From a virus: a stretch of 64,000 nucleotides of DNA. The stretch's first letter is position 1; every line of letters begins with the position of its first letter. Location: IMG/VR virus record IMGVR_UViG_3300028844_006119, positions 78,187 to 142,186 of that record. The stretch is one strand, 5' to 3'. The translations under genes and the position numbers were made by a program. The notes under the pieces were generated by a model. It worked only from the letters and a program-made list of their open reading frames with translations, made no database searches and was not told where the DNA came from. Below are positions 2,542-49,958 of the stretch, piece by piece.

Positions 2542-3503
2542 TTTCCAGCGGCTCCCTCTTTTTCTTCAGCGACGAAATACAAAAGTGTGCAGGCATGCCT
2601 GCGCCTCAGCAAGCGCAGCAACCTGAGAAGAAACAGAGCTTTCTCTCCAGGAACAAGATGACTTTGGGAGCCGGCGCTCTTGCCGCAGGGATGATCCTAA
2701 AGAACCCCCAGGCAGCCTCCAAGTACCTGGGCCAAGTGAAGCAGATGGTCACTAACCCTAAGGCAGCCCTTCAGCGTGGCTGGAGATCTGGCTCATCCAA
2801 CATCACCGGCAAGGTCCCCGGGGCCTCCGAGTCGGCGTCCAAGAGAGTCAGACTGTACAAGGACGTCTTAAGCTCGGCCGAGCAAGGCAAGCTTCAGTCC
2901 GTCAAATCCCTCGACACTATTGGCGCGGGGGGAACTTCTGCGAGAGCTTCGGGCTGGGGAAGCGCGGGTAGGTCGTTCAGTAGAGCAGGACAAGAGCTAA
3001 AGATGTCCCCCGATCTCACTAAGAGAGTGGGAGACATGCAAGCCAAGCTCAAGGCCGGAGAAGAAGTCTCAGAGCAAGCCTTGAAGGGCCTTTATGCTGA
3101 GATTCAGGGTGCTGGAAAGGGCCTTAAGATGAGGAAGGGCCTGTCGTACTATGCCCCTGGAGAGCGTACGATGATGACAGGTCTGGGCACAGGTCTGGGG
3201 GCAACGGCGGGCCTTGAGACCCACGATGCGGAAACAGGACGCAAGAGGGGCGTGGCGGAGCGAGTTGCTCGCGGGACTGTCGGTGCTGCGACTGGCACCG
3301 CGATGTCCTCCCTATTCATGGGACGAGGCGCAAGGCTCAGCAGCAAGAACTTATTCACAGGAAATAGAGGCTCTCTGCTCAGCCAAAAGGGACTTCTGCC
3401 AGTCGCGGCAACGACTCCCCTACTGGTGGGTACTGAGGCCGCTGGGGAGGTCGCGGGGAAGGGCGGAGAGCTGGCCGACAGAGCCTTTGGACAGAAATCA
3501 TGA
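2538..3503 (+). CDS. Leader-bearing (FFSDEIQKCA) basic Gly-rich protein with hydrophobic segments
   Basis: Overlapping GTGA start; leader at aa 9-18; LGAGALAAGMIL and GLGTGLGATAG segments. Confidence 0.75.
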   Translation: MISSGSLFFFSDEIQKCAGMPAPQQAQQPEKKQSFLSRNKMTLGAGALAAGMILKNPQAASKYLGQVKQMVTNPKAALQRGWRSGSSNITGKVPGASESASKRVRLYKDVLSSAEQGKLQSVKSLDTIGAGGTSARASGWGSAGRSFSRAGQELKMSPDLTKRVGDMQAKLKAGEEVSEQALKGLYAEIQGAGKGLKMRKGLSYYAPGERTMMTGLGTGLGATAGLETHDAETGRKRGVAERVARGTVGAATGTAMSSLFMGRGARLSSKNLFTGNRGSLLSQKGLLPVAATTPLLVGTEAAGEVAGKGGELADRAFGQKS

Positions 3504-5602
3504 ACGTAGTTTCTAGCGAATCAAACCGATTCAACCCGCGCCCTGTCGACTATGAGGGTGGCCGGGGCTTCGGCATTCGCTACCCGTCCCCCTTCTTCGA
3601 TGTCGCGCAGCAGTTTCTTCCGTCCGACGTACACCAGCTCCATCACTGGTGTCGGTACTACTTTCTGACCAACCCGGTTATCAACGCTGCCTGCTCCAAG
3701 ATGGCGGAGTACCCCGTCACTCCTCTCGTCTTTGAGACGGAAGACCCCAAGCTGGTAGAGCTGGGCAAGTCCCTAGAAGATCAGCTAAAGCTGCGATCTT
3801 TTCAGGTTGAAGTCGGACTAGACTACTTTGTCTACGGAAATGCGTTCATCTCGCTGTTCTTCCCGTTTGAGAAGTACCTCCTCTGCCCGAAGTGCAAGGA
3901 GCGTTACCGCGCCAGCAAGAACCGCTTCAGATACAAGTGGCGGAGCGGTCGCTTCTATCTGAAGGAGTGCAAGTGCGGGTACCAGGGGTACGCGAAGCAG
4001 CAGGATGTCTACATCCGCAGCGCGCGCGACATTCGCCTGGTTCGGTGGAATCCAGAGAACGTCAACATCAAGTACAACGAGATCACAGGTAAGGCGAAGT
4101 ACTACTTCAAGCTGCCTCGAGCGATCGCCAACGATATCAAGTTGGGCGACGCGGACACGATCGAGACGCTACCCCTTGAGTTCCTAGAGGCTGCCCGTAA
4201 GAAGAAGTCCCTCCTGTTTACTCAGGACAACCTCTATCACTTGAAGCGTCCGACGATTGCCCAGAAGGATCAGGGCTGGGGCACTCCCCTGATCTACCCC
4301 TTGCTGAAGGACGCGTTCTACCTGCAGGTCATGAAGAAGGCGAACGAGGCGGTCCTCATGGAACACATCGTTCCTATGAGGATACTCTTCCCTGGGCAGA
4401 GCACGGGCGGGAATGAGGGTCCATACGGATCCTATAACCTGAGCAACTGGAAAAAGAAGGTAGACGCTGAGATCAACATGTGGCGTCGGGACCACAACTA
4501 CATCCCAGTTCTGCCCGTGAACGTCGGGTTCCAGCAGATCGGCGGACAGGGCCGAGCCCTTCTGATGTACCAGGAGATGCGTCTTCTTTCGGAGCAGATG
4601 CTCGCGGGCGCAGGAATCCCTGTCGAGTTCATCTTCGGCGGGCTTCAGTGGAGCGGGTCCAGCACCTCCCTCCGGGCTCTGGAGAACATGTTCCTGGGGT
4701 ACAACAAGCAGCGCCATGAGCTCGTAAACAAGTTCATCGTGGAGAAGGTTTGCTCCTTCATGCGTTGGCCCAAGATCTCGGTGCGCTTTGACAAGTTCAA
4801 GATGGCCGACGATCTGCAGAGAAGCATGTTCTACCTGCAGCTCAACCAGGCGCAGAAGGTCAGTGACCGCAGGCTGCTTGAGGAGATCGGAGAGAACTTC
4901 GATCTCGAGAACGATCGCATGATGTCCGAGCTAAAGAAGAACCTTCAGACGCAGCGCACCATGCAGGTCGCCGGTGCTGACGTTCAGGGAGAGATCCAGC
5001 TTCGCACTTCCCGGTACCAGGCTAAGTCTCAGTCCCTAATGGCGAAGGCACAGGCCGAAGTCCAGATGGAGATGCAGAAGAAGCAGCTGGAGATGCAGCA
5101 GCAGATGCAGCAGCAGGTGCAGCAGGGTGCAAACCCTCAACAGGTTCAGGCGGCGCAGCAGGCGGCGCAGCAACAACAAGGCGCAGCAGCACAGGCCGCC
5201 CCGCAAGGTCAGGCTCAGCAGGGCGGAGGTCAGGCTCAGCAGACTCCCGGTATGCCGGACGGGGCCACCGCGTACGATGAGAACGCGAAGTCTCCTAACG
5301 ACACGGGGATGCCCGCAGCTATGGCGGGTATGACTTCTCAGATCCAGCAGGGAGCTGGAGGAGTAGACCTTCGATACATCGCCCAGAGAGCCGCGGCGTT
5401 CTTGAAAACGGTCAAGAAGGAGCAGGGCCCTGAGGCCATGTACAAGTCTTTGGCCGAGATGCAAACCGGCAATCCGAATCTCTATCAGCTGGTTGTCCAG
5501 CTATTGAACGATACAGGATCTAAGGAAAATCCCCAGAACGCCCAGGCGGCCCCCAAGCCTAACGGGAATCCGCAAGCGGATATTTCCCGTCAGGTGGGGT
5601 AG
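3500..5602 (+). CDS. Portal protein (with Zn-ribbon-like insert and Gln-rich C-terminal extension)
   Basis: Portal-like motif series: INAACSKMAEYP, LDYFVYGNAFI, RWNPENVNI, YHLKRP...GWGTPLI, LAGAGIPVEFI; CPKC...CKC insert. Confidence 0.75.
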   Translation: MNVVSSESNRFNPRPVDYEGGRGFGIRYPSPFFDVAQQFLPSDVHQLHHWCRYYFLTNPVINAACSKMAEYPVTPLVFETEDPKLVELGKSLEDQLKLRSFQVEVGLDYFVYGNAFISLFFPFEKYLLCPKCKERYRASKNRFRYKWRSGRFYLKECKCGYQGYAKQQDVYIRSARDIRLVRWNPENVNIKYNEITGKAKYYFKLPRAIANDIKLGDADTIETLPLEFLEAARKKKSLLFTQDNLYHLKRPTIAQKDQGWGTPLIYPLLKDAFYLQVMKKANEAVLMEHIVPMRILFPGQSTGGNEGPYGSYNLSNWKKKVDAEINMWRRDHNYIPVLPVNVGFQQIGGQGRALLMYQEMRLLSEQMLAGAGIPVEFIFGGLQWSGSSTSLRALENMFLGYNKQRHELVNKFIVEKVCSFMRWPKISVRFDKFKMADDLQRSMFYLQLNQAQKVSDRRLLEEIGENFDLENDRMMSELKKNLQTQRTMQVAGADVQGEIQLRTSRYQAKSQSLMAKAQAEVQMEMQKKQLEMQQQMQQQVQQGANPQQVQAAQQAAQQQQGAAAQAAPQGQAQQGGGQAQQTPGMPDGATAYDENAKSPNDTGMPAAMAGMTSQIQQGAGGVDLRYIAQRAAAFLKTVKKEQGPEAMYKSLAEMQTGNPNLYQLVVQLLNDTGSKENPQNAQAAPKPNGNPQADISRQVG

Positions 5603-5862
5603 CGCAGCATGGGGAGATCTATGCCCGCAGGGAACTTCAGCGGATCCCCGGCCCCTGAGGGGTACAGGTACGCAAGGATTTCCCTGGAGTTGTCTATTAG
5701 GCATCTTTCGTGGAAGATCGGCTCTTGGTCTCCTGAGTCGAAGTAGGTCTCCGATACGGTGTACCTCTTTGGCCTCCTCCCCACCTCATACCTGGACAGG
5801 CTGACCATCTTCTCATTCTCTACGATCTGGGCCGTGCACCAGTCGCACTTGAATCTATCCAT
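5590..5862 (-). CDS. Small hypothetical Zn-finger-like protein
   Basis: CDWC...HERC; coupled to upstream ORF. Confidence 0.65.
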   Translation of the reverse strand: MDRFKCDWCTAQIVENEKMVSLSRYEVGRRPKRYTVSETYFDSGDQEPIFHERCLIDNSREILAYLYPSGAGDPLKFPAGIDLPMLRYPT

Positions 5863-6166
5863 CGACGATGGCCAGCATCAGTACTCCGCTCTCATACCCG
5901 CAGATTTCGCATTTACCGTTGCCGTAGTAAGGCTGTAGGATGAGACCCTCGGTGCAGGTCGAGCAGACCCACAAGTAGTCCCCAAACGCATTATCGATAA
6001 GAGAGCATGTCTCACACGCCACATCACTACAGAGGCTTTCGGCCAAGGGACAGTACGCCGTATGTATCGGCTCGTCCCTCTGCTTCTTCTCTGTCGGGAC
6101 CGCCGGGGCATCTAAAGAGAAGCCGGAGGGCCGGGCAAAAAGCCCGGCCCTCCTCTTCTTACTCAC
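5855..6166 (-). CDS. Cys-rich hypothetical protein
   Basis: CETC, CSTC, CEIC pairs. Confidence 0.65.
   Translation of the reverse strand: MSKKRRAGLFARPSGFSLDAPAVPTEKKQRDEPIHTAYCPLAESLCSDVACETCSLIDNAFGDYLWVCSTCTEGLILQPYYGNGKCEICGYESGVLMLAIVDG
6125..6160 (+). terminator. GC-rich hairpin, possible terminator of + strand (portal) transcripts
   Basis: ggagggccgggc-aaaaa-gcccggccctcc, perfect 12-bp stem followed by tcttctt. Confidence 0.4.
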
Positions 6167-6266
6167 CGTCGAGCTCGTCTAGCTCAGCGAGCGCGTCCTT
6201 CAGGACGCGCTCGCTCTGCTGCATCAGCCCCACCACGAAGGCGAGGCCGAATAGCCCCACGACCAC
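6159..6266 (-). CDS. Small membrane peptide, 35 aa (MVVGLFGLAFVVGLMQQSERVLKDALAELDELDGE); not in the ORF track
   Basis: GGAGG upstream; start overlaps upstream TAG (TAGTG); stop overlaps start of 5855..6166. Confidence 0.5.
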   Translation of the reverse strand: MVVGLFGLAFVVGLMQQSERVLKDALAELDELDGE

Positions 6267-6349
6267 TACGCCTCCCGAAAGAGGCGGTCAACCTCTTCTT
6301 GTGGGGTCTCGGGGGTCGGGGTCTCAGTCTCGTCAGCTGTATAGATCAT
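6266..6349 (-). CDS. Small acidic peptide, 27 aa (MIYTADETETPTPETPQEEVDRLFREA); not in the ORF track
   Basis: AAGGAG RBS before ATG 6349; first ORF after the GTCATAA motif at 6392. Confidence 0.45.
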   Translation of the reverse strand: MIYTADETETPTPETPQEEVDRLFREA

Positions 6350-6391
6350 TCTTCACTCCTTTTTGGTCGGGCTATGTCCCGACCAAAAGAG

Positions 6392-6418
6392 TTATGACTC
6401 GTAAACAATAAGGATTCA
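6392..6418 (-). promoter_or_regulatory. Phage promoter-like motif (GTCATAA), divergent from the RNAP gene
   Basis: tgaat-N15-GTCATAA, 43 nt upstream of ATG 6349. Confidence 0.55.
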
Positions 6419-6419
6419 C

Positions 6420-9400
6420 ATGGCAAACCTGGCTCCAGGGGACGCATACCGCCTCCTCGAAGAAAGAACCAAAGAAGCCATCAAGAGTCACTTCCCGGTC
6501 GAAGGCCGAGAAAACAGACTCGAGTTGGTAGATATTTCCACGGATGAGGATGCCTCCTCTGCGTCTGGAAAGCACCACAGCTACAACCACACGTCTCAGA
6601 CGGACGCAAAGCTCCATGACAGAACATGGGGTCCCAACATCGTAGGGACGTTCCGGCTCGTAAACATGGAGACGGGTAAGGTCGTAGACCAGGGGAAGCG
6701 CACCCTGGGCCAGCTGCCTAAGATCACCAGTCGGTACAGCTACATCGTTGAGGGGAACGAACGTCAAGTCGACAGCGTCTTCCGCCTTAACCCCGGCGCC
6801 TATCACGTAGAGGCCGACAACGGAGATCTTCTTGCGAAGTGGAACGTCGCCGCAGGATCCAAGGTTGGTTCGTTCAAGATCTCCATTGAGCGTAAGCATC
6901 CCAAGAAACTGGGGGCCATGTACCTGATTGTGAAGAGTGGCACGCAGTCTACTCGCAAGATCCCGGCGTACGGAATCCTCTCCGCCCTGGGAGTATCCGA
7001 CCCTGCTATGCGCAAGGCGTGGGGAGAATCCGTATTCGAGGTAAACCGCAGGATCTCCAAGCCCAACGACCTTCTAAACTTTCACGAAGCGGTGGAGAAG
7101 CGCCGAGCGGGCAAGGATAAGTACGAGACGCCTACCCTCTCCGAGGCCCGCAAGTTTGCGAAGGAAGTCTTCGAGGGCGCAGAAGTAAACCCCGATACGA
7201 TGCTTGCTACGCTGGGCAAGAAGTTCACCAACATCTCTGGGGACGCTCTCCTGGCCTCCTCGGCCAAGGTGGTGGGAATTAGCAAGGGGACCGCGGAGCC
7301 TGACGACAGACAGTCTCTCTCCAACAAGCGCCTCTTCGGGATGGAAGATTTCATCCACGAGGAGATCTCTAAGGGATCGTCTCGGTTCGAGATGCAGAAG
7401 AAGATCCGGAACAACCTCGATCGTAAGGGCAAGATCTCAGACATTCTTCCGGCTGCGTCCGTGGGGTATGGGAGGCTGATCACGCGCAAGTTCAAGGCTG
7501 CCCAACTTCCGACCCAGACAAATCCCCTTCAGTTCGTGTCTAACCACACGAAGACGACCATTCTCGGTCAGGCGTTTGGCGGAATTAAGGGAGACAATGT
7601 CAACCTTGATCGAGACAAGCTGATCAATCCCTCTCACTTGGGGCTGCTTGATCCTCTGCAGACACCAGAGAACACCTCTACCGGCGTCTCGCTGCACATC
7701 CCAATCGGGGCCAATAAGAAAGGTCAGCAGCTTTACACAAAAGTCCTGAACGTAAAGACCGGGAAGTTCGAGAATAAAAACGCAGCGGAGATGGAGAAGG
7801 CCGTCGTTGCATACCCCGACCAGGTGAAAATCACCCGCACGAAGACCGGAGCCACAGTCCGGCCCCTGCACCCCGACGTTGTCGTCTATGACTCAGACCG
7901 CAGCACGGCCAAGAGGCCCTGGAAGGACGTCCAGTACGTTCTTCCCAACGCAAAGACACTATTCTCGGTTAGCGCAAACATGATCCCGTTCGTTCAGAAC
8001 GACAACGGGAACCGAGCCATGATGGCCGCTAAGCACCAGGAGCAAGCAGTCTCTCTGAAAGACCGAGAAGCCCCGCTGGTTCAGGCTGAATTTGCGGGAG
8101 GGGTCTCATTCGACCAGATGATCGGCAAGTTGAACTCTACTACCGCTAGTGTGGCCGGAACTGTGTCGAGAATCACCAAGGATTCTGTTTACATAAAGGG
8201 CGCGGCAGGAAAAGCGGTGTCCCACCCGATCTACAACCACCATCCCCTCAACGGCACGAAGCACATGATGCATTCGACTCCGGTTGTGAAGGTGGGAGAC
8301 AAGGTAAAGGTTGGACAGCTCATCGCCGACTCTAACTTCACCAAGGACGGCACCCTATCCTTGGGTACGAATCTTCGCGTCGGGTATCTGCCGTACAAGG
8401 GCTACAACTTTGAGGACGGGACCGTCATCTCGGAGACTGCCGCCAAGAAGTTGGTGTCCACCCATCTCCACATCGAAGAAGCGGAGATGTTCGCCAACGT
8501 AGTCGTAAACAGGAAGCTGTGGAGAAACTTCGCTGGGGCCAACAAGGCCACGGCAGAAGTGATGAGCAAGCTGGACGAGGATGGCGTCATCAAGGAGGGA
8601 GCCAAGGTAGTTCCCGACGATGTGTTGATCACTCGGCTGGTCAAGGCGGAGATGACTCGAGAGAACCAGGACGTCAAGAGGTCCCTGAAGAAGGCTATCC
8701 GGGACTACAAAGACGCCGCAGTGGTCTGGAAGCATGAGTACGGCGGCACTGTCGTTCGAGTCGTCAAGACTGCGAAGAAGATCCAGGTTCATATCCGCAC
8801 TGAGCAGACAATGGAGCCCGGAGATAAGCTGTCGGGGCGTCACGGTAACAAGGGAATCATCACCAAGATCCTGCCTGACGATATGATGCCCAAGGATAAG
8901 AGCGGGAAGCCCGTCCATGTCCTGATGAGCCCCGCAGGCGTCCCATCCCGTATGAATGTCGGGCAGGTCCTGGAGACGGCTGCAAGTAAGATTGCCCGCA
9001 AGACGGGAAAGTCGTACAAGATCGAGAACTTCGATGCCTCCGTTGATTACTCCCAGAAGATTAAGGATGAGCTCAAGAAGCACAATCTTTCCGATACGGA
9101 GGAGCTTTTCGATCCCGAAACCGGAGAGTCTCTCGGGCAGATCTTTACGGGTGAGCAGTACATGCTCAAGCTGGACCACCAGGCCGAAAAGAAGGTGTCT
9201 GCCCGATCTGGAGGATCTGGGTATGCCTATCGGCCCACCGGCGAGGCAATCTCCGGTTCGGGCATCGGGAAGGGCGGGCAACGAATTGGTGGCCTAGACA
9301 CCTACGCTCTGCTGGCACACGGAGCCAAGAGAAATCTGATGGAGATGCAGACCTACAAGTCTGACTCCGAGCAGGCCCGGGATGTCTGGATTCGGGTGAT

Positions 9401-12400
9401 GCAGGGACAGCGTCCGCCTCCCCCCAAGGTCCCTACCTCGATGGAGCACTTCAAGAAGTACCTACGGGCTACGGGGGTCTATGCCGAGGAGACTGGCGGT
9501 GTGTACTCCCTGTCTCCCATGACGGATGCTCAGACCCTAGGGCAGAGTAAAGGCGCGCTCGTAGCGGCGGATAAGACGCTGGTGGCAAAGGGGATGCTCA
9601 CCAAGGAAGAAAAGGGCGGCCTGTTTGATAGGGGCAAGACCGGAGGCATGGAGGGCAAATTCTGGTCCCACATCGACATGAAGACCCGGATGCCCAACCC
9701 AATGTTTGAGACCGCAATCCAGTCTCTGCTCGGCCTAAAAAAGGCGGAGTTTGAAAAGCTGGTCTCCGAAAACGGAGCCGTGGGGAAGAAGTCCGGGTTC
9801 CAGATCATTGAGGAGCGTCTGCGCGCCATCAAGGTTCCCTCCGAGCTAAAGAAGGCGGAAGAGGAGCTGAAGACCGCTAAGAAGGCGGACCTCAACAAGA
9901 AGTACAAGAAGGTCCGGTATCTTCGCGCGCTGAAGGAGCTCAAGACCTCTCCGGTAGACGCCTATACGAACCAGCATCTCCCAGTGCTGCCTCCCATCTT
10001 GAGGCCGGTAAAGATTGGATACGACGGCACACAGATGATTGATGCCGCGAATCAGTACTACGCCATGATCGGCCAGATGACCAAGCAGGTAGAGCAGGGG
10101 AAGAAGGAGGGGCTGCCGAAGGCCGACATCTTCAAGAGAGAAGCGCAGCTATACGACCTGGTCCGTGCGTTGCGCCTGAATGGCATGACTCAGGAAGGCA
10201 GGGAGCTTCCCAGTCTGATGGACAAGATGACGGGCTCGAAGCCCAAACACTCATTCTTTCAGCAGGGTGTTCTGTCGAAGCGGCAGGACTTGTCGGGCCG
10301 GACGGTCGTTACCCCAGAGCCCGCATTGAAGATGGACCAGGTGGGCATCCCTGTCGATATGGCGATGGAGACGTACAAGCCGTTCGTCATCAGAGAGCTG
10401 TGGCGTCGTATGGGAATCGCCAAGAGCCCTGGCGAAGCAAGACGCATGATCAAGAAGAACCACCCCTCCGCCAAGAAAGCGTTGGAGAGGGTGATTACTC
10501 AGCGTCCAGTAATCATGAAGAGAGACCCTGCGCTTCATATGTTTTCTACTATGGCCTTCAAGCCAGTTCTTGTGCCGGGGAAGTCGATCAAGATCCACCC
10601 ACTTGTGTGCGGCGGCTTCAACGCGGACTTCGATGGCGACACCATGGCCATGTATGTGCCCGTGACTGAGGAAGCTGCGGAGGAGGCCCTGGAGAAGATG
10701 CTCCCGTCTAAGAACCTGTTTTCCCCCACACACGGGGGCCTCATGTTGACCCCCAGCCAGGATGCCGTTCTCGGCATCTACCAGGCTACAAAGTGGGGCA
10801 AGAAGGTTCCTGGAATCCTTACGGAGGAGCAGGCGCTTCAGCAGCTGAAGAACGGAAAGTTGAAGTCTGACAACGTCATCACGGTCAAGGGCCACAAGAA
10901 GCCTACGACTGCGGGAAGACTGCGGATCAACAAGACCCTGCCCGGCAGCGTAAAGAATGATCCCGAGCTTCTATACGATCCCAAATTCCGCATGGCCAAG
11001 GGCGCTATGAAGGGATTCGCAACTCGAGTAGCCCAATCCGATCCGGATGAGTTCTCCGGCATGATCGACGGATGGAAGGAGTTGGGGTTCACGCTGTCAT
11101 ATAAGAACGGTAGTTCGTTCAGCCTGAATGATTTTCACGACGGTAAGACCATCCGAGACAACGTCCTGAAGAAGTACAAGAAGGAAGAGAATGTGATTCG
11201 CAAGTCTGGTATTTCTCGTAAAAAGAAGGACCAGAAGATTATCGCCCTGTACCAAAAAGCAGGCGAGGAACTCAAGGTTATCGGGCAGGCCCACTACAAG
11301 GCTAAAAAAGACAACCGTATGTGGGAGTGGGCTGAAAGCGGTGCGCGAAGCAACTGGGGCCAGTTCGGTCAGTTGGTCATGGGGCCCATGCTTGTGCAGA
11401 ACCCCTCCAAGGAGTTTGTGCCTGTACCGCTCACTACCTCGTTTGGGGAGGGGCTCCCGATCTCTCAGTACTGGGCAGCGCTGCATGGCGCCCGAAAGGG
11501 AACCCTGGATCGCGCAGCAGGAACTAGAGACCCCGGAGCGCTCACCAAGGAGTTGATCAACACAGTCATTGCGTACTCTGTGACCGACAAGGACTGTGGT
11601 ACTTCCAAGGGCACTCTGATGTCCGTCATGGCGAAGGACATCGAGGGCAGGTACCTGGCGCGCGAGGTGCCCCTGAAGAGCGGGGACAAACTGACCCGTG
11701 GAACCCTGGTCAGCTCGGCATTGTTGACCAGGATGAAGAACTCCGGCCCCCAGAAGGTCCTGGTGCGCTCCCCTCTTCACTGCCAGCAGGCAACGGGCAT
11801 TTGCGCCACTTGCTATGGGCTTAACGAGAGAGGAACTCTCTACAAAAAGGGAACCAACGTTGGCATCATTGCCGGCCATGCCCTCGGAGAGCCAGTCACT
11901 CAGATGCAGATGCGGACGTTCCACACGGGCGGCGCCGGAACCGACGGGCTGACGGATTACTTCCAGCAGGCAAAGGACCTCTTCAAGGTGCCCGAGAAGC
12001 TACGAGGTGCCGCTACGTTGGCGGAGGTCACCGGCAGGGTAGATAAAATCGAGACGGATGCCCTTGGCGGTAAGAAGGTCACGATTGGCGGAAAGCTGCA
12101 CGTTGTCCCCCACTCGACCCCACTCCTCCCGAAGATTAGGGTCGGGGCGGACGTGAAGAAGACAGACGCGCTCTCTGTTGGTCGGAAAAATCCGCACGAC
12201 ATCCTTCGGATCTCCAACAACATCCATGCTGTCCGCAATCACCTCACGACAGAGCTAGACTCTCTGTACGTAGAGACTACGGGGAACGAGAGGCGGAGGA
12301 ACATCGAGACGGTGATCCGTGCGATGACCGATGTTGCGCAGGTGACCGAAAGCTCTGAGCACGAGAACCTGCTCAATGGGCAGATGATGTCTCTTTCCCG

Positions 12401-12758
12401 GATTGAGAACAGGAACAAAGAGCTGAAGAAGTTGGGACTCCCCACCATCCAGCACAAGCCTCTGCTGAAGCCTATGGACAAAGTCCCGCTTTCCGGTAAA
12501 GAAGACTGGATGGCGCGACTAAACTTCCAGAGGCTTAAGGACACCCTTATCGAGGGCGGGGCACAGAACTGGAAGTCAGATATCCAGGGTCACCCCATCC
12601 CAGGCCTGGCGCATGGTGCGGCGTTTGGACTGCAAGCCCCAAAGACCGCAGCCATAAGCTCCCCTTTCCCCAAGCCCCCCAAACCTGTTAAACTTCCGGC
12701 ACCTGTGCCTGCCGCCCCGCAGGGCATCTTCGGGTCCTTCTTTGGAGCAAAGTCATGA
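6420..12758 (+). CDS. rpoBC: DNA-directed RNA polymerase, fused beta-beta' subunit (phage-encoded)
   Basis: Beta motifs in order: NPLQF..H, HLGLLDPLQTPE, GYNFED, GDKLSGRHGNKG, GVPSRMNVGQ, YMLKL, GGQRIG. Then beta' motifs: LPVLPP.LRP, KRQDLSGR, catalytic NADFDGD (10620..10640), GARKG bridge helix, GEPVTQMQMRTFHTGG trigger loop. Confidence 0.97.
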   Translation: MANLAPGDAYRLLEERTKEAIKSHFPVEGRENRLELVDISTDEDASSASGKHHSYNHTSQTDAKLHDRTWGPNIVGTFRLVNMETGKVVDQGKRTLGQLPKITSRYSYIVEGNERQVDSVFRLNPGAYHVEADNGDLLAKWNVAAGSKVGSFKISIERKHPKKLGAMYLIVKSGTQSTRKIPAYGILSALGVSDPAMRKAWGESVFEVNRRISKPNDLLNFHEAVEKRRAGKDKYETPTLSEARKFAKEVFEGAEVNPDTMLATLGKKFTNISGDALLASSAKVVGISKGTAEPDDRQSLSNKRLFGMEDFIHEEISKGSSRFEMQKKIRNNLDRKGKISDILPAASVGYGRLITRKFKAAQLPTQTNPLQFVSNHTKTTILGQAFGGIKGDNVNLDRDKLINPSHLGLLDPLQTPENTSTGVSLHIPIGANKKGQQLYTKVLNVKTGKFENKNAAEMEKAVVAYPDQVKITRTKTGATVRPLHPDVVVYDSDRSTAKRPWKDVQYVLPNAKTLFSVSANMIPFVQNDNGNRAMMAAKHQEQAVSLKDREAPLVQAEFAGGVSFDQMIGKLNSTTASVAGTVSRITKDSVYIKGAAGKAVSHPIYNHHPLNGTKHMMHSTPVVKVGDKVKVGQLIADSNFTKDGTLSLGTNLRVGYLPYKGYNFEDGTVISETAAKKLVSTHLHIEEAEMFANVVVNRKLWRNFAGANKATAEVMSKLDEDGVIKEGAKVVPDDVLITRLVKAEMTRENQDVKRSLKKAIRDYKDAAVVWKHEYGGTVVRVVKTAKKIQVHIRTEQTMEPGDKLSGRHGNKGIITKILPDDMMPKDKSGKPVHVLMSPAGVPSRMNVGQVLETAASKIARKTGKSYKIENFDASVDYSQKIKDELKKHNLSDTEELFDPETGESLGQIFTGEQYMLKLDHQAEKKVSARSGGSGYAYRPTGEAISGSGIGKGGQRIGGLDTYALLAHGAKRNLMEMQTYKSDSEQARDVWIRVMQGQRPPPPKVPTSMEHFKKYLRATGVYAEETGGVYSLSPMTDAQTLGQSKGALVAADKTLVAKGMLTKEEKGGLFDRGKTGGMEGKFWSHIDMKTRMPNPMFETAIQSLLGLKKAEFEKLVSENGAVGKKSGFQIIEERLRAIKVPSELKKAEEELKTAKKADLNKKYKKVRYLRALKELKTSPVDAYTNQHLPVLPPILRPVKIGYDGTQMIDAANQYYAMIGQMTKQVEQGKKEGLPKADIFKREAQLYDLVRALRLNGMTQEGRELPSLMDKMTGSKPKHSFFQQGVLSKRQDLSGRTVVTPEPALKMDQVGIPVDMAMETYKPFVIRELWRRMGIAKSPGEARRMIKKNHPSAKKALERVITQRPVIMKRDPALHMFSTMAFKPVLVPGKSIKIHPLVCGGFNADFDGDTMAMYVPVTEEAAEEALEKMLPSKNLFSPTHGGLMLTPSQDAVLGIYQATKWGKKVPGILTEEQALQQLKNGKLKSDNVITVKGHKKPTTAGRLRINKTLPGSVKNDPELLYDPKFRMAKGAMKGFATRVAQSDPDEFSGMIDGWKELGFTLSYKNGSSFSLNDFHDGKTIRDNVLKKYKKEENVIRKSGISRKKKDQKIIALYQKAGEELKVIGQAHYKAKKDNRMWEWAESGARSNWGQFGQLVMGPMLVQNPSKEFVPVPLTTSFGEGLPISQYWAALHGARKGTLDRAAGTRDPGALTKELINTVIAYSVTDKDCGTSKGTLMSVMAKDIEGRYLAREVPLKSGDKLTRGTLVSSALLTRMKNSGPQKVLVRSPLHCQQATGICATCYGLNERGTLYKKGTNVGIIAGHALGEPVTQMQMRTFHTGGAGTDGLTDYFQQAKDLFKVPEKLRGAATLAEVTGRVDKIETDALGGKKVTIGGKLHVVPHSTPLLPKIRVGADVKKTDALSVGRKNPHDILRISNNIHAVRNHLTTELDSLYVETTGNERRRNIETVIRAMTDVAQVTESSEHENLLNGQMMSLSRIENRNKELKKLGLPTIQHKPLLKPMDKVPLSGKEDWMARLNFQRLKDTLIEGGAQNWKSDIQGHPIPGLAHGAAFGLQAPKTAAISSPFPKPPKPVKLPAPVPAAPQGIFGSFFGAKS

Positions 12759-13177
12759 ACAAGATCGCCGCATACGAAATCGCACTCGAGAGAATCGAAC
12801 TTGAGAAGCGGGCTGACTCCCTGGTGGAGGCCTACGGCACCAGTGAGGGCTACATGCCGGGTGCCTACCTTCAGGCGTTTGATCAGATCGAGAAGGAAGC
12901 CGGAATCCAGGCTATCGCAAATATCGGGAGCCGCCTCTCAACAGCGGCGCGAGGCACCATTAAAGGGATGATGGGGAGCGGCGGGGCAGTAGTCCGAAAG
13001 GGCGGGAAGATGCAGCTTAGCAGGGGAGCCGGACTTGGGGACACGGCTAAGTACTACGGAGCTCGAGGCGTGCAGCGCGCGGGAAGATTCGCCATGCAGA
13101 ATCCCGGCGCGACTGCAGCTGTTGGCGGGGTCGGAGGTGTCGGAGCTGCCGGCCTCGGGTACAAGGCTCTGAAGTAG
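12755..13177 (+). CDS. Leader-bearing (MNKIAAYE...FDQIEKEA) basic Gly-rich peptide precursor
   Basis: ATGA-coupled to RNAP; acidic N-half, cationic C-half ending in AVGGVGGVGAAGLGYK. Confidence 0.75.
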   Translation: MNKIAAYEIALERIELEKRADSLVEAYGTSEGYMPGAYLQAFDQIEKEAGIQAIANIGSRLSTAARGTIKGMMGSGGAVVRKGGKMQLSRGAGLGDTAKYYGARGVQRAGRFAMQNPGATAAVGGVGGVGAAGLGYKALK

Positions 13178-13178
13178 A

Positions 13179-14378
13179 ATGCCCGCACCCGTCTCCCCAG
13201 CAGCGCCTTCTCCGGCATTGATCCTCCAAGGGCGCATCTCTGAAGTAGATGCGCCCCGGTGGCTATGCAAGGTGCGGGTTGACGGGAGAGACGATGATGT
13301 GACCACGACCATCCCATCTGTGTACTCTCATCCGATGAACGGGGAGGGGATCCACTTCTTGCCGGAGGTTGGAGCGTTTTGCTACGTCTGCTTTAGCTCC
13401 GACAAGAAGACCATCCCCTTCCTGCTTTCTGCTGGAGCCGCAACGGTGCCGAAGGATCGGTCTTCATCCGAAGGCCTTCCCGGGTCGATGGATATGTTCC
13501 GTCCCCTCCTGACCGCAGGGGACATTGCCCTTCTCACTAGAGACGGCAACGGCCTTACCCTGCGCAGAGGAGGAGTGACGGAACTCAAGGGCACGTCCCT
13601 GGCTAAGATCGTGTTCAACCCGACGATGAACCAGGTGTTCACCATCGCTGAGAACTACCGGGTCCAGACGTTTGGAGGATCTACTGAGTGGAAGAACCTC
13701 CGACGCGAGGAAAACCCAGATGGCCAGGTCAGGACGCGGCTCTCTACTGTGGTCAAGGAGTACGCCACCTCCAAGGGCTACAGTGTCCGTCTCCAGATGG
13801 GTGCCACTGAGGGAGCGCCTGTTGCGCTTCAGGGCGACGATTCGGCAGAGAAAGCGCCGGACAAGGTGGTGGAAGAGTCGGAAGCTGTGACGCTCTCCGG
13901 TACAGGAGATACATACACGGTCACGGTGCCCAAGTCTGTTCCGCTGCTGGACAGCACTAGGGTTGTGGACTTCAGGATCTACGAGGACGAGACGGTCGCT
14001 GAAGATGCGCTAGAGGTAGTGATGAATCTCGGCATGGACCGAGAAGGAGACATCCAACTCGAGACCGATGGCGCTATGAAGATCGACGTGCCCAAGAAGT
14101 GGGTGGAGATTGTCGTTGGAGGCAGCACTCCGTTTATCAATACGGAAGCGGCAGGGGCGCAGAAGGTACTGGTAACTACTGGGACACAGGGCAACACTGA
14201 GCCGGTGATCAAGGGATTCGCATTCCTGTCAGATCTTGCGGCCTCTCTGACCGAGATTAAGACGGCCCTGAACGGGCTCGGCATTCCGACTGTCTCGACG
14301 GATGCCCTATTGGCAAACATCCTTACTTCTGTGGCGGACGGAGCTCCATATCTGTCTACTACTCTGGAGAGTGAATAA
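13179..14378 (+). CDS. Baseplate central spike / gpV-Gp5-like protein
   Basis: N-terminal OB-fold-like GRISEVD...CKVRV...GIHFLPEVGAFCYVCF followed by beta-strand-rich region. Confidence 0.55.
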   Translation: MPAPVSPAAPSPALILQGRISEVDAPRWLCKVRVDGRDDDVTTTIPSVYSHPMNGEGIHFLPEVGAFCYVCFSSDKKTIPFLLSAGAATVPKDRSSSEGLPGSMDMFRPLLTAGDIALLTRDGNGLTLRRGGVTELKGTSLAKIVFNPTMNQVFTIAENYRVQTFGGSTEWKNLRREENPDGQVRTRLSTVVKEYATSKGYSVRLQMGATEGAPVALQGDDSAEKAPDKVVEESEAVTLSGTGDTYTVTVPKSVPLLDSTRVVDFRIYEDETVAEDALEVVMNLGMDREGDIQLETDGAMKIDVPKKWVEIVVGGSTPFINTEAAGAQKVLVTTGTQGNTEPVIKGFAFLSDLAASLTEIKTALNGLGIPTVSTDALLANILTSVADGAPYLSTTLESE

Positions 14379-15960: not shown

Positions 15961-16775
15961 TTCCCTTCTACCCCAAGTTTGGAAGCCAGGAGGATGCTCC
16001 AGGGTATGGCCCTGCTGCGTCCGAGGATAAGTGCGAGAACTGCGCGCATTATCGTAACTTGGGGAACCAAGGGCACTGCGAGAAGTTCTCGTTTATGTGC
16101 CAGCCTGAGTACGCCTGTGACGACTTCCGGCCTTCGGGAGTAATCAAGGAGTCCAGCGTGGTTGCGGAGGCTGCGGCCCTCCCCCGGAAGAAGGTCGAGG
16201 CGGTACAGGACACTGCGCGTGCCCTAAAAGAGAGAAACATCTCTCGAGCCCTGAACTCTGCCCAAAAAGACCTGATGCCGGGGAGATACGACAAGGCCAT
16301 TGAGAACCTAAAGCATCTATACCCCAAAGAGGCTGCTTCTCCTTTCATGCAGGGACTCGATCCTCTTGCAGGGGAGGTCGCCCGGGGAGCTATCCGGGAT
16401 CGGCTGAATCCCGACGTCTCTTCGGAGGAAATGACCCGCAGACGGAGACTCGCGACGCTGGGCGGAGTAGTCGGAGGCGGAGTCCTGGTCCCTGGCGCAG
16501 TCTCCGCTGTCCTAGGGGCCGGTGTTGGAGCTATGGGGAATAGAGGGTTGGGGAGAGTTACGGGAGCCGCGCGCCAGGCAGGGCGGGCTCTGCGAGGAAC
16601 CTTTACCCGGGCAGGAAGTCCTGCTCTTATTGCCGGGGCAGGGATCGGAGCAATGGGGGCTCGCTCCCAATACGATTTAGGGGCGGGGCTTGCCGAGCTT
16701 GCCGCCGAGAAGCACGCCTCTACCGACCACAGCTTGCGGTCTTTTCTTAGGAAGAATCATGAACAAGAACGCTAA
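15957..16775 (+). CDS. Multi-cassette protein: Cys mini-domain plus Gly-zipper segment, separated by K-x-A/S sites
   Basis: KFGS, KESS, KEAA, KHAS; CENC...C...C; LGGVVGGGVLVPGAVSAVLGAGVGAMG. Confidence 0.65.
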   Translation: MIPFYPKFGSQEDAPGYGPAASEDKCENCAHYRNLGNQGHCEKFSFMCQPEYACDDFRPSGVIKESSVVAEAAALPRKKVEAVQDTARALKERNISRALNSAQKDLMPGRYDKAIENLKHLYPKEAASPFMQGLDPLAGEVARGAIRDRLNPDVSSEEMTRRRRLATLGGVVGGGVLVPGAVSAVLGAGVGAMGNRGLGRVTGAARQAGRALRGTFTRAGSPALIAGAGIGAMGARSQYDLGAGLAELAAEKHASTDHSLRSFLRKNHEQER

Positions 16776-24600: not shown

Positions 24601-24627
24601 TTATGCCGTGTTTTCTCCCCTTTTTAA
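24601..24627 (-). promoter_or_regulatory. Phage promoter-like motif (ttaaaa-N14-GGCATAA)
   Basis: 38 nt upstream of ATG 24563; TAA of the motif is the upstream gene's stop codon. Confidence 0.55.
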
Positions 24628-25308
24628 GATCTTACGGAATAGGGCATCTGAGGTCGTAGAGGTCCCTACGTGCTGCCCCTCCAACTCCGGGGCGACGGCC
24701 CCCGCAAGCTCTCCGTAGATAAACGCGCTGATCCGCAACTTTCTTCGGGAGGATGCCAATATTTTGTGGAGCCCCTGCAGCTCCAGGGAAGCCGCATACT
24801 CTGGCCGAGTAACGACAAACCCCATCATCATGGTGCAGAGCCGCAAGAATGTTCTCCAGGGGTGGATATCGGAGGTCTGCCCTGCCATCACTACGAAGTC
24901 ATCCTCGGAGAGCCTGTCGAAGATCTCTACCCACGGAGCGATCTCCGTCGTCTCCCAGGCTCCTCTCTTCGTGTGGGCCACCGCAAACGTATACAGCTCT
25001 GAAGAGTAGGAGGGGCTCAGCCCCAGTGCCGCATCCTTCGCGTCTAAGATTCTAAGGACGACCTCCATGTGCGACTCCAGCCGGCGCACCTTAGAGCGCA
25101 GGCGAATCAGCTCCTGCCTGGAGACGACAGGGGACGCGGAGTCCATGTCTTCTTTCAGGTCCTGGACCTCCTCCGGGCGAAGGTATACGCTCCGGCCCTT
25201 CTTCTCCTTGGACAGCAAGCCTTTTTTGATATAGTTTCTGACGGTCCTGTCGGTTACTGAGAGGAACCTAGCTGCGTCCTGTAGCGTCATCATGTTATCG
25301 TGACTCAT
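24601..25308 (-). CDS. Helix-turn-helix (MerR/excisionase-like) DNA-binding protein
   Basis: MTLQDAARFLSVTDRTVRNYIKKGLL followed by coiled coil. Confidence 0.8.
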   Translation of the reverse strand: MSHDNMMTLQDAARFLSVTDRTVRNYIKKGLLSKEKKGRSVYLRPEEVQDLKEDMDSASPVVSRQELIRLRSKVRRLESHMEVVLRILDAKDAALGLSPSYSSELYTFAVAHTKRGAWETTEIAPWVEIFDRLSEDDFVVMAGQTSDIHPWRTFLRLCTMMMGFVVTRPEYAASLELQGLHKILASSRRKLRISAFIYGELAGAVAPELEGQHVGTSTTSDALFRKILKRGENTA

Positions 25309-25326
25309 CCCTACTCCGGGCGGTTC

Positions 25327-48029: not shown

Positions 48030-48372
48030 TTTCTTTCTTCATCCTCTCCTTAATTGCCCCAGCGATTGCCCAGGCCTTTGGCTTGCGCCGGTAGCTGATG
48101 ACGGTCCAGTGCCCCATGGGGGCATCGGACTCGAGCATGGACGTCACATCCTCCGTGTACTGCTCCTGGGCCTCCGCCTCGCACTGTCGGAGTAGCTTAC
48201 TGCTCCTTCGAGACCGCTCCATTCTGCGAAGTTCGCCCTCCAAGAGATACTCCGCTTCCTCCTCTACGCAGGTGTTGAGATACTGAAGGACCGAGTCCAT
48301 GTCGGCCTTCCTTGCCCGGTTGGTGAACCACCCGGTCAGCTCTTCGAAAGTACCGAACATGCGGGCTCCCAT
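48019..48372 (-). CDS. Hypothetical protein between AAA and VWA genes
   Basis: Overlaps both neighbours in an operon arrangement. Confidence 0.6.
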   Translation of the reverse strand: MGARMFGTFEELTGWFTNRARKADMDSVLQYLNTCVEEEAEYLLEGELRRMERSRRSSKLLRQCEAEAQEQYTEDVTSMLESDAPMGHWTVISYRRKPKAWAIAGAIKERMKKENDW

Positions 48373-49593: not shown

Positions 49594-49906
49594 TGTCTTC
49601 CCCCTGTGGAAGAAGACGGGCTGCATCCCGGCCCCTAAGATGGAAGGAGACCGAGTCTCTCTCGGCCTTCTCCAGTCCATGCTTGCCCGGCAGGTGGGCA
49701 GACACGAGACCTTCTCCGATGAACTATTGGAGGAGATGGAGATGACCATTCAGAAGGTCATCACAGACGAGACATCTATTGATTTCTCCGAGAGCGAGAA
49801 ACACCTCTGCGTGGATATCCTCTCGGAATGTGCCCGCGGTGTCTTTGGCTACACCCTGTACTTGCCCAAGAAGTGGCTGGGGCACCTGCGTAAAAAGGAC
49901 GAGTAA
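49580..49906 (+). CDS. Hypothetical protein
   Basis: GGAGG RBS before ATG 49580. Confidence 0.6.
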   Translation: MSTNNVFPLWKKTGCIPAPKMEGDRVSLGLLQSMLARQVGRHETFSDELLEEMEMTIQKVITDETSIDFSESEKHLCVDILSECARGVFGYTLYLPKKWLGHLRKKDE

Positions 49907-49917: not shown

Positions 49918-49958
49918 TACTATTGCCCGGCAACTTAACCCCTGGAGCAAGAGGAAAA

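What the first reader, a model, noticed from the sequence alone, without database searches (positions are those of the whole stretch)
6420..12758. Single-chain, streamlined beta-beta' RNA polymerase inside the virion operon
Seen: all major beta then beta' motifs in one 2112-aa ORF, with a seamless junction near 9480-9510 and intact NADFDGD. It is about 600 aa shorter than E. coli beta plus beta'. It lies between portal and baseplate-spike genes, is ATGA-coupled to a leader-bearing gene, and ends in KTAA plus a Pro-rich tail. Established: beta-beta' fusions occur in Helicobacter and Wolbachia, phiKZ-like phages have split subunits, and uncultured phages with deep-branching beta/beta' have been reported, so the enzyme class is probably not new. 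Inference: a virion-packaged RNAP, possibly processed at the C-terminal K-x-A. No alpha-NTD, omega or sigma gene is visible in the window.
Basis: partly seen in the sequence, partly recalled or inferred. Interest (0 to 1): 0.7.

Follow-up and report, generated by a model that had tools for sequence, protein, structure and literature searches.

The report
Single-chain bacterial-type phage RNA polymerase
An uncultured marine tailed phage encodes both large subunits of a bacterial-type RNA polymerase as one 2112-residue protein beside its portal gene; the enzyme is real, belongs to a large family I found described in no paper, and probably works with the phage's own sigma factor after delivery in the virus particle.

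Summary
Window 6420-12758 (+) is one open 2112-aa frame with beta domains, then beta' domains, and intact catalytic motifs. An independent marine assembly carries it colinearly, with no indel.

It is about 620 aa shorter than E. coli beta plus beta'. Most of that is the absence of lineage-specific inserts (SI1, SI2, SI3). The beta' N-terminal zinc finger and part of the jaw are also missing.

The protein belongs to a large fused family: over 120 protein clusters and 549 IMG/VR stretches. The family sits next to the portal gene in 76 of 81 loci. In my tree it is separated from 19 bacteria of nine phyla by one long branch, so it is not a recent capture.

The closest cultured relatives are Salmonella phage Arash and Vibrio phage D69. 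They split the same enzyme inside beta', and in Arash the two pieces are among the most abundant virion proteins.

The genome carries no alpha or omega gene. It does carry a sigma factor, 44 kb before the window. A complex model docks that sigma on the polymerase clamp helices.

C-terminal K-x-A processing is not supported.

Other follow-up reports of this scan reached the same reading on other genomes.

The parts
6420..12758 (+). Single-chain beta-beta' RNA polymerase gene (2112 aa, P0001)
   Evidence: Intact and colinear in an independent marine contig.
6420..9497 (+). Beta-like half (res 1-1026). It lacks E. coli beta 3-39, SI1 (229-376), SI2 (934-1049) and parts of 1126-1194. The rifampicin pocket is altered: Q513 deleted, D516 to T, H526 to N, S531 to T.
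   Evidence: Pfam Rpb2_6 and Rpb2_7; MAFFT map against E. coli.
9498..12758 (+). Beta'-like half (res 1027-2112). It follows the beta C-end directly, with no linker.
9603..9677 (+). Place where the beta' N-terminal Cys4 zinc-binding domain (E. coli 67-98) is missing. It is missing across the aligned family members, including Arash and D69.
   Evidence: Alignment.
10023..10160 (+). Clamp helices (res 1202-1247), the predicted docking site of the phage sigma factor.
   Evidence: Aligns to E. coli beta' 260-309. Interface in the complex model: score 0.73, best control 0.01.
10620..10640 (+). NADFDGD catalytic metal-binding motif (res 1401-1407).
   Evidence: Most of its columns are invariant in the 12-member family alignment.
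10887..10913 (+). Loop where Arash and Vibrio phage D69 split the enzyme into two genes (res 1490-1498; E. coli beta' 551-554).
12630..12755 (+). C-terminal tail: a Pro/Lys-rich linker ending in the aromatic motif GIFGSFFG.
   Evidence: The linker plus terminal F-F-S-F-type motif is conserved in the close clade (63-82% identity). The KTAA site is not conserved.
3500..5602 (+). Portal protein gene.
   Evidence: 31% identity to Arash portal gp204, E 3.5e-86. Found upstream on the same strand in 76 of 81 related loci.
5590..6266 (-). Small minus-strand genes between portal and polymerase: 5590-5862 and 5855-6166 (both Cys-rich) and 6159-6266 (hydrophobic 35 aa).
   Evidence: The overlapping + ORF 6007-6411 translates to low-complexity sequence.
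6350..6419 (+). Upstream region of the polymerase gene: a hairpin (ttggtcggg...cccgaccaa), the Shine-Dalgarno AAGGA at 6410-6414, and a minus-strand GTCATAA at 6392-6398.
   Evidence: Sequence read; motif scan.
12755..13177 (+). 140-aa gene whose ATG overlaps the polymerase TGA stop (ATGA). It has a Gly/Ala-rich C-end and no signal-like N-end.
   Evidence: Homologues in only 11 of 81 related loci.
13179..14378 (+). Central baseplate spike (gpV/VgrG-like), 399 aa.
   Evidence: Pfam Phage_base_V, E 3e-4, below cut-off. Model pLDDT 73.7; best folds are contractile-injection VgrG, the R2 pyocin spike and P2 gpV. Present in 74 of 81 related loci.

Best explanation
The gene encodes an active DNA-dependent RNA polymerase of the bacterial type. 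[quoted passage not shown]

Proposed mechanism (inferred steps are marked):
1. The single chain forms the whole catalytic core. No alpha dimer or omega is needed, because the covalent joint replaces alpha's role as an assembly scaffold (inferred).
2. Promoter recognition comes from the phage's own 277-aa sigma-70-family factor. Its gene lies 44 kb before the window, at G000:32958-33791. Its region 2 docks on the clamp helices (modelled, not measured).
3. The gene sits in the portal-to-baseplate block, so it would be expressed with the virion genes (inferred). The core, and probably sigma, are packed into the capsid and ejected with the DNA (inferred from the Arash virion proteome).
4. In the cell the pair starts transcription of phage genes independently of the host polymerase. 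It is probably insensitive to rifampicin (inferred from changed pocket residues).
5. A candidate promoter class, TAAA-N15-G[GT]CATAA, heads the minus-strand non-structural genes (weak evidence).
For: Shown:
- One open frame with all beta then beta' domains and intact catalytic motifs.
- The frame is intact in an independent sample.
- The family is large and keeps full length: over 120 clusters of 2030-2130 aa and 549 IMG/VR stretches, the best 80 of which are full length. That argues for selection on the fused form.
- The phage clade is split from 19 bacteria of 9 phyla by one branch (SH-aLRT 100).
- No alpha (PF01000, PF01193) or omega (PF01192) in the 142-kb record. No alpha (PF01000) in 15 large relatives, 9 of them at least 90% complete.
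- Sigma: Sigma70_r3 at E 2e-8, and a FliA/WhiG-type alignment over res 98-269. It is homologous to Arash gp10 (E 8e-19). The top 50 fold matches of its model are all sigma-70-family factors, the best being B. subtilis SigD.
- A Sigma70_r3 hit occurs in 12 of 15 large relatives. Sigma homologues lie on the same contigs as the polymerases.

Modelled:
- Polymerase residues 1027-1500 with sigma gave ipSAE 0.73 (three runs: 0.73, 0.75, 0.68) against a best control of 0.01.
- That mark was reached by 58 of 80 solved complexes and 2 of 110 mismatched pairs.
- The runs agree in at least 51% of their contacts, and the partner pLDDT is at least 68.
- The interface is the clamp helices, res 1202-1247.
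- This is a textbook pair, so the pass may only reflect likeness to solved holoenzymes.

By homology:
- Arash gp206, gp216 and sigma gp10 are in purified virions, and gp206 has the most spectra (PMC10585845).
- Portal upstream in 76 of 81 loci and spike downstream in 74 of 81.

Promoter motif: 19 of 20 G[GT]CATAA sites are on the minus strand. At least 14 lie 25-93 nt upstream of minus-strand ORF starts.
Against: - No proteome, transcriptome or biochemistry exists for this phage or for any fully fused member. Packaging rests on a relative at about 30% identity.
- The Arash authors themselves note that abundant enzymes may simply persist in purified particles.
- The record is only 77% complete, so a missing alpha, omega or second sigma cannot be excluded for this genome.
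- Use of host alpha or omega cannot be excluded by sequence.
- Pfam does not see sigma region 2. Region 2 is found in only 3 of 15 relatives.
- The promoter motif is no more frequent than chance overall (20 sites against about 24 in shuffles). In relatives its orientation bias is weak (15 sense against 10 antisense).
- No promoter class was found for the plus-strand genes, including the polymerase gene itself.
Confidence: 0.6

Rival explanations
1. It is a non-virion polymerase. The enzyme is made after infection and transcribes middle or late genes only. Host polymerase makes the early transcripts, and nothing is packaged.
For: - The gene lies among late-type structural genes, so it could simply be a late product kept for the next round or used late.
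- Some plus-strand genes have sigma-70-like TTGAC(T/A) boxes upstream.
- The Arash authors allow that abundant enzymes may persist in purified particles.
Against: - Only one polymerase gene is present. A polymerase expressed with the late genes cannot start its own synthesis unless it arrives with the DNA or the host enzyme transcribes it first.
- In Arash the two polymerase pieces rank first and fifth in virion spectra, above the portal.
- Portal adjacency is conserved in 76 of 81 loci.
Confidence: 0.25
2. It is a hybrid enzyme. The single chain is only a beta-beta' core that must recruit host alpha, omega or a host sigma factor to assemble and work.
For: - Bacterial beta-beta' fusions (Helicobacter, Wolbachia) still use alpha and omega (established knowledge).
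- The beta' C-terminal region that omega contacts in bacteria is partly alignable.
Against: - Alpha is absent from 15 of 15 large relatives, while 12 of 15 keep their own sigma.
- Hosts of the family appear very diverse (Salmonella and Vibrio for cultured relatives; marine metagenomes here). Dependence on a host-specific alpha would be costly.
- phiKZ-type phage polymerases are described with beta and beta' cognates plus one phage-specific subunit; the review names no alpha (PMC7824862).
Confidence: 0.13
3. It is a recent capture of bacterial rpoBC, bacterial contamination, or an assembly or frameshift artefact that joins two genes.
For: Some records in the phage collection that matched are clearly bacterial rpoBC (Salmonella, Listeria and Staphylococcus entries).
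Against: - Best identity to any bacterial rpoBC is 29-33%, spread over many phyla.
- The phage clade is separated from all 19 bacteria by a branch of about 2.6 changes per site.
- The frame is flanked by portal and spike genes.
- The same fused frame occurs in hundreds of contigs and in an independent sample without indels.
Confidence: 0.01

Closest known systems
RNA polymerase of Salmonella phage Arash (gp206 + gp216, with sigma gp10; OQ632216, PMC10585845) and of Vibrio phages D69, D181 and D148
   Same: - Homologous over the whole length, at about 30% identity.
- Beta is fused to the N-half of beta' in the same way, and the zinc finger is missing.
- The gene follows the portal gene.
- A homologous sigma sits near large virion proteins.
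- In Arash, both polymerase pieces and sigma gp10 were detected in virions.
   Different: - Arash and D69 cut the enzyme in a surface loop of beta' (our res 1490-1498) into 1525-aa and 606-aa genes, separated by 2 to 9 other genes. Here it is one chain.
- Arash has a second, RpoS-like sigma (gp196). It has no match in this 142-kb record.
- On the tree the split forms nest beside a fused member, so the split looks secondary.
phiKZ-type jumbo-phage multisubunit polymerases (virion and non-virion sets; PMC7598289, PMC7824862)
   Same: - Phage-encoded polymerases related to cellular beta and beta'.
- One set is packaged in the virion for early transcription.
- No alpha or omega.
   Different: - Those enzymes are split into four or five polypeptides, and the phages encode no sigma factor (PMC7824862).
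- They come as two paralogous sets.
- Here there is one chain, one copy and a sigma partner.
- PHROG hits to their families are much weaker (E 1e-7 to 1e-30) than hits to the two unnamed families 24349 and 25354.
mReC: Caudovirales with a deeply branching multisubunit polymerase (Weinheimer and Aylward 2020, PMC7481178)
   Same: - Uncultured tailed phages with beta and beta' recognisable by cellular profiles.
- They form a clade apart from cellular lineages.
   Different: - Every phage row in the two parts of their Supplementary Data 2 that I read has separate beta (900-1563 aa) and beta' (887-1391 aa) genes.
- The paper mentions fusion only for crAss-like phages.
- Whether the fused family is sister to mReC was not tested.
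Cellular beta-beta' fusions (Helicobacter, Wolbachia) and single-chain two-barrel phage polymerases (crAss-like gp66, YonO)
   Same: - Helicobacter and Wolbachia join beta to beta' in the same order (established knowledge).
- crAss-like gp66 is a single-chain, virion-packaged polymerase with the DFDxD site (bioRxiv 10.1101/2020.03.07.982082).
   Different: - The cellular fusions are housekeeping enzymes that use alpha, omega and host sigmas.
- crAss and YonO enzymes show no detectable similarity to the COG0085/COG0086 profiles (PMC7481178). This protein scores E 1e-65 and E 4e-30 on Pfam beta and beta' domains.

Membership tests
Bacterial-type multisubunit RNA polymerase core (beta + beta') | Beta catalytic barrel and flanking domains (Rpb2_6, Rpb2_7; GRHGNKG lysines) | tested here: met
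   Pfam E 1e-65 and E 8e-6; the motif aligns with E. coli beta 1060-1080.
Bacterial-type multisubunit RNA polymerase core (beta + beta') | Beta' NADFDGD site, bridge helix, trigger loop and second zinc site | tested here: met
   PDB sequence search matches bacterial beta' at E 1e-113.
Bacterial-type multisubunit RNA polymerase core (beta + beta') | Beta' N-terminal Cys4 zinc-binding domain | tested here: not met
   E. coli beta' 67-98 has no counterpart, and all four Cys are absent. The same holds across the aligned family members.
Bacterial-type multisubunit RNA polymerase core (beta + beta') | Alpha dimer and omega subunits encoded or used | tested here: not met
   No PF01000, PF01193 or PF01192 in the genome. 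PF01000 is absent from 15 of 15 large relatives. Use of host subunits is not testable here.
Sigma-dependent holoenzyme (sigma-70 family partner) | A sigma-70-family factor is encoded, with regions 2-4 and a clamp-helix docking surface | tested here: met
   - Sigma70_r3 over the cut-off, and a FliA/WhiG-type span.
- The model's fold matches are all sigma factors.
- The complex model scored 0.73 against a best control of 0.01, at the clamp helices.
- Binding itself has not been measured.
Arash-like phage polymerase lineage | Homology over the full length, portal adjacency, and a homologous virion sigma | tested here: met
   same clade on the tree.
Arash-like phage polymerase lineage | Enzyme split into a beta + beta'-N gene and a beta'-C gene | tested here: not met
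   One uninterrupted frame here. Arash and D69 break at our res 1490-1493.
Virion-packaged RNA polymerases (N4, phiKZ virion set, crAss gp66, Arash) | Protein present in purified virions and ejected into the host | not testable with these tools
   Shown only for the Arash homologues (PMC10585845). Here the support is gene position and synteny.
phiKZ-type jumbo-phage polymerases | Four or five split subunits, two paralogous sets, no sigma | tested here: not met
   One gene, one copy, and a sigma is present. The phiKZ features are taken from PMC7824862.
mReC lineage (PMC7481178) | Separate beta and beta' genes forming the published deep clade | tested here: inconclusive
   Gene layout differs. 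No mReC sequence was on hand for the tree.

The most novel reading that the evidence does not exclude
The 2112-aa chain and the 277-aa phage sigma together form a complete, self-sufficient holoenzyme of the cellular type. That is two proteins instead of the bacterial six chains, with no alpha, no omega and no beta' zinc finger. The pair is packed in the capsid, ejected with the DNA, and reads a phage-specific sigma-28-like promoter class. It would be the simplest known sigma-dependent multisubunit-type transcription machine. The conserved C-terminal linker and aromatic end motif could be its capsid-docking handle.
Probability: 0.4. Interest if true: 0.8.

Novelty: new variant of a known kind. 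Interest (0 to 1): 0.62.

Why it matters
- Bacterial RNA polymerase is thought to need the alpha dimer to assemble beta and beta'. A natural, widespread enzyme that replaces this with a covalent joint would test that idea directly.
- It also lacks a zinc finger that nearly all sampled bacteria keep, and yet appears to use a sigma factor.
- It would offer a two-gene, probably rifampicin-insensitive, sigma-programmable polymerase for structural work and for orthogonal gene expression.
- The family adds a fourth way for phages to bring their own transcription into the cell, besides N4-type, phiKZ-type and crAss-type virion polymerases.
- It is common in marine and other metagenomes, yet I found no paper that describes it.

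Tried and rejected
- **Near-identity search.** Megablast of the gene against 50,697 phage records found no match.
- **Neighbouring genes.** PHROG and Pfam scans of ten neighbours gave nothing except a weak Phage_base_V hit.
- **Weak Sigma70_r4 hits.** Two of the three turned out to be a ParB-like protein (49779-50783) and an excisionase/MerR-type HTH protein (24601-25308, minus strand), not sigmas.
- **Second sigma.** A search with Arash gp196 found no match in the 142-kb record.
- **C-terminal K-x-A processing.** Rejected for this protein. The count equals chance (4 against 3.9 expected) and the site is not conserved. No other ORF in the genome ends in an FxSFF-type motif, so a shared C-terminal packaging tag is not supported either.
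- **De novo word search of intergenic DNA.** No long shared motif was found, and none by eye upstream of plus-strand genes.
- **Promoter motif in relatives.** G[GT]CATAA shows only a weak orientation bias there.
- **RNA evidence.** No RNA holder is listed among public runs, so expression could not be examined.
- **Short joints in laid contigs.** Joints with sides of 22-23 letters come from other organisms' conserved rpoB/rpoC pieces, not from this phage.
- **mReC membership.** It could not be settled, because no mReC sequences were on hand.
- **Host.** Unknown. The only family member in the prokaryote genome set is a 204-kb contig binned with a Bacteroidales MAG. That is weak evidence, and it concerns a distant member.

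Full report
**1. The observation**

Window 6420-12758 (+) is one open frame of 2112 codons.
- Pfam places RNA_pol_Rpb2_6 (res 611-932, E 1e-65) and Rpb2_7 first. Rpb1_2 (1287-1425, E 4e-30), Rpb1_3 and Rpb1_5 follow.
- PHROGs matches two unnamed families, 24349 for the beta part and 25354 for the beta' part, far better than the phiKZ-type 'RNA polymerase beta subunit' families.
- A search of solved structures matches bacterial beta' at E 1e-113.

I aligned the protein, eleven relatives, Arash and D69 against E. coli beta plus beta'.
- The beta C-end (...GVYAEETGG) runs straight into the beta' N-end (VYSLSPMTD...). The joint is at about residue 1026/1027 (about nt 9497), and no linker is added.
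- NADFDGD (1401-1407), GRHGNKG, the bridge helix, the trigger loop and the second zinc site are intact.

The frame is not an assembly artefact. A contig from an independent marine study (run X3, 8986 nt) covers window 6000-12903 with 203 substitutions and no gap.

**2. What 'streamlined' means**

The protein is 637 aa shorter than E. coli beta (1342) plus beta' (1407). The alignment accounts for about 621 of these:
- Beta: residues 3-39, SI1 (229-376), SI2 (934-1049), and parts of 1126-1194.
- Beta': residues 14-31, the Cys4 zinc-binding domain (67-98), 144-174, SI3 (945-1100), and part of the jaw (1138-1185).

Most of the loss is therefore lineage-specific inserts that many bacteria also lack. 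The real departures are the missing zinc finger and the trimmed jaw. The zinc finger is missing in all the aligned family members, Arash and D69 included.

The flap-tip region and the clamp helices are kept.

In the rifampicin pocket, Q513 is deleted, D516 is T, H526 is N and S531 is T. By analogy with E. coli resistance mutations, this predicts insensitivity. That is an inference.

**3. Relatives**

The closest cultured relatives are Salmonella phage Arash and Vibrio phages D69, D181 and D148, at about 30% identity.
- In these phages, the portal gene and a small gene precede a 1525-aa gene (beta plus the N-half of beta'). A 606-aa gene (the C-half of beta') lies 2 to 9 genes further on.
- The break maps to our residues 1490-1493, which is E. 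coli beta' 551-554. This is a variable surface loop.
- D181 and D148 have a homing endonuclease annotated under the stretch that matches the polymerase.

The fused form is very common.
- More than 120 clusters of 2030-2130 aa share 40-82% identity with the window protein. They sit on contigs of up to 220 kb.
- Some members reach 2400-2800 aa and carry intein or LAGLIDADG domains.
- In IMG/VR, 549 stretches encode relatives. The best 80 all match essentially the whole protein.
- None of the ten NCBI-derived clusters I looked up carries a phage or organism name.

**4. Origin**

A scan of one genome per prokaryote species found a single family member. It is a 204-kb contig binned with a Bacteroidales MAG, carrying a 2869-aa fused frame. 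Every other hit was ordinary rpoBC at 29-33% identity, spread over many phyla.

I built a tree of 15 phage rows and 19 bacteria from nine phyla (1952 columns, LG+C20 by PMSF, quick search).
- It puts all phage rows on one side of a single branch (SH-aLRT 100, length 0.58 + 2.07).
- Bacterial inner branches are at most 0.26.
- The enzyme is therefore not a recent capture from any sampled phylum.
- The tree has no outgroup, so it says nothing about the root.

Within the phage clade, the split Arash/D69 pair sits beside the fused Bacteroidales-bin member (support 85). This group is opposite the other twelve fused rows. Fusion is therefore the likely family state, and the split is secondary.

The published deep-branching phage set (mReC, PMC7481178) lists separate beta and beta' genes in every phage row of the two supplement parts I read. 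That paper mentions fusion only for crAss-like phages. Three literature searches found no description of a fused bacterial-type phage polymerase. The library is incomplete, so this is not proof of absence.

**5. Partners**

The record is an IMG/VR contig of 142,186 bp, estimated 77% complete. The window is its last 64 kb.

It has one polymerase gene. It has no alpha (PF01000, PF01193) and no omega (PF01192), while the same searches found these families in all 14 control genomes.

It does have a sigma factor, at G000:32958-33791, 44 kb before the window.
- Sigma70_r3 scores E 2e-8, over the cut-off. A FliA/WhiG-type alignment covers residues 98-269.
- It is homologous to Arash gp10 (E 8e-19). 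It follows homologues of the large virion proteins that precede gp10 in Arash.
- Its AlphaFold model (pLDDT 76.8) matches only sigma-70-family factors among the top 50 PDB chains. The best match is B. subtilis SigD.

In 15 large relatives (9 at least 90% complete, 2 with terminal repeats), 12 have a Sigma70_r3 hit and none has alpha. Sigma homologues lie on the same contigs as the polymerases and diverge in step with them.

A complex model of polymerase residues 1027-1500 with sigma passed its controls.
- It scored ipSAE 0.73 (three runs: 0.73, 0.75, 0.68) against a best control of 0.01.
- That mark was reached by 58 of 80 solved complexes and by 2 of 110 mismatched pairs.
- The runs share at least 51% of their contacts, and the partner pLDDT is at least 68.
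- The interface joins clamp-helix residues 1202-1247 to sigma residues 56-99.

Sigma on the beta' coiled coil is a textbook complex. The pass shows that this pair looks like solved holoenzymes. It does not show that the pair binds.

**6. Packaging**

There is no direct evidence for this phage.

In Arash, mass spectrometry of purified virions gave gp206 the most spectra of any protein (3516). Gp216 had 1210 and sigma gp10 had 467. The second sigma, gp196, is not in the passages of the virion table that I read (PMC10585845). The authors caution that abundant enzymes might simply persist in purified particles.

In 81 related loci the portal gene lies upstream on the same strand in 76, mostly within 2.5 kb. 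The 399-aa gene downstream is present in 74. That gene is a central spike:
- Phage_base_V scores E 3e-4, below the cut-off.
- The model has pLDDT 73.7.
- The best fold matches are contractile-injection VgrG proteins, the R2 pyocin spike and P2 gpV.

A single polymerase gene placed among late genes makes most sense if the protein travels with the DNA. That is an inference.

**7. The C-terminal tail**

After the conserved GAEFG, the close clade (63-82% identity) has a 30-48-aa Pro/Lys-rich linker. It ends in G[FI]FGSFF, FFSF[LI] or FSFFG. The 40%-identity clade ends about 10 aa after GAEFG, in ...KPHxY. So the linker and the terminal aromatic motif are conserved features of one clade.

The KTAA site is not conserved. 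K.A[AGS] occurs 4 times in the protein against 3.9 expected, and the C-terminal site is absent from the relatives examined.

Genome-wide the motif is enriched (107 against 59 expected). The enrichment is concentrated in a few head-region proteins, for example 8 against 0.8 in window 25300-26208. It may be a real signal there, but it does not single out the polymerase.

The function of the tail is unknown. A docking peptide for capsid or portal is a guess.

**8. A candidate promoter class**

G[GT]CATAA occurs 20 times in the genome, and 19 of these are on the minus strand. At least 14 lie 25-93 nt upstream of minus-strand ORF starts. These include window positions 531, 21831, 24076, 24607, 49270, 57759 and 60437.

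Fifteen aligned sites also share T.AAAA about 15-20 nt upstream and an A-tract next to the core.

The minus-strand genes are non-structural: a GyrB-like topoisomerase, an AAA_5 ATPase and others. The plus strand carries the terminase, the portal, the polymerase and the spike.

From memory, the layout resembles sigma-28 promoters (TAAA-N15-GCCGATAA). That would fit the FliA/SigD-like sigma. The evidence is weak:
- The total count is no higher than in shuffles.
- Relatives show little orientation bias.
- No motif was found for plus-strand genes.

Other readers of this scan noted the same motif.

**9. Verdict**

The gene encodes a real, probably active, single-chain bacterial-type polymerase from a large phage family that I could not find in the literature. 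The best-supported mechanism is a two-protein holoenzyme, the chain plus the phage sigma, without alpha. It is probably carried in the virion to start infection.

The steps that are shown are the gene, its motifs, the family, the phylogenetic separation, the presence of sigma and the absence of alpha. The steps that are inferred are binding, alpha independence, packaging, rifampicin insensitivity and the promoter class.

Follow-up reports of this scan on other genomes reached the same reading.

Near-identical sequence occurs in marine metagenomes from several studies.

Noticed in passing
window 531, 6398, 21831, 24076, 24607, 49270, 57759, 60437 (minus strand); stronger copies at G000 652, 1166, 1709, 5546, 6264: Promoter-like motif T.AAAA-N(about 15)-G[GT]CATAA. 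Of 20 sites, 19 are on the minus strand, and most lie 25-93 nt upstream of non-structural minus-strand genes. The left-arm copies read AAAAAGrGGCATAAATAnTAGTA.
   Followed up: partly
window 25300-26208, 16690-18747, 28969-29937, 527-1750: K-x-A-[AGS] is strongly over-represented in a few head-region proteins (8 against 0.8 expected, 6 against 1.2, 6 against 1.4, 5 against 0.7). Genome-wide it is 107 against 59. It may be a head-protease signal, but the polymerase is not enriched.
   Followed up: partly
window 6007-6411 (+) and 5590-6266 (-): The 134-aa plus-strand ORF just before the polymerase translates to Ser/Pro/Arg-rich low-complexity sequence and is probably not a gene. The real genes there are two Cys-rich small ORFs and a 35-aa hydrophobic ORF on the minus strand. 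A GC-rich hairpin lies at about 6126-6153.
   Followed up: partly
window 12903-13178: In an independent marine contig (run X3), the 3' part of the 140-aa gene downstream of the polymerase is replaced: 274 nt are skipped and 215 other letters stand in their place. This small gene has homologues in only 11 of 81 related loci.
   Followed up: no
P0034, P0039, P0042, P0044, P0045, P0048, P0067, P0070; L089:8947-17556: Several family members are 2400-2870 aa long and carry LAGLIDADG or intein-splicing domains (PF14528, PF14890) inside the polymerase. Vibrio phages D181 and D148 have a homing endonuclease annotated under the stretch that matches the polymerase. Mobile elements seem to target this gene repeatedly.
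   Followed up: no
P0059 and P0069 (res about 1380); L001 Arash gp206; L002 D69: Variants of the catalytic motif: NADHDGD in one fused subclade, and AADYDGD in Arash and D69, instead of NADFDGD. The three aspartates are kept.
   Followed up: no
window 55211-57136 (-), 48336-49229 (-), 46179-48029 (-), 49779-50783 (+): The right arm encodes a GyrB-like topoisomerase subunit, a MoxR-type AAA_5 ATPase next to a VWA (CoxE-like) protein, and a ParB/Noc-like protein.
   Followed up: no
G000 10980, 34361; window 33573, 62782 (upstream regions): Four plus-strand genes have (G)TTGAC(T/A/C) 35-60 nt upstream of the start, like a sigma-70 -35 box. No convincing -10 partner was seen.
   Followed up: no
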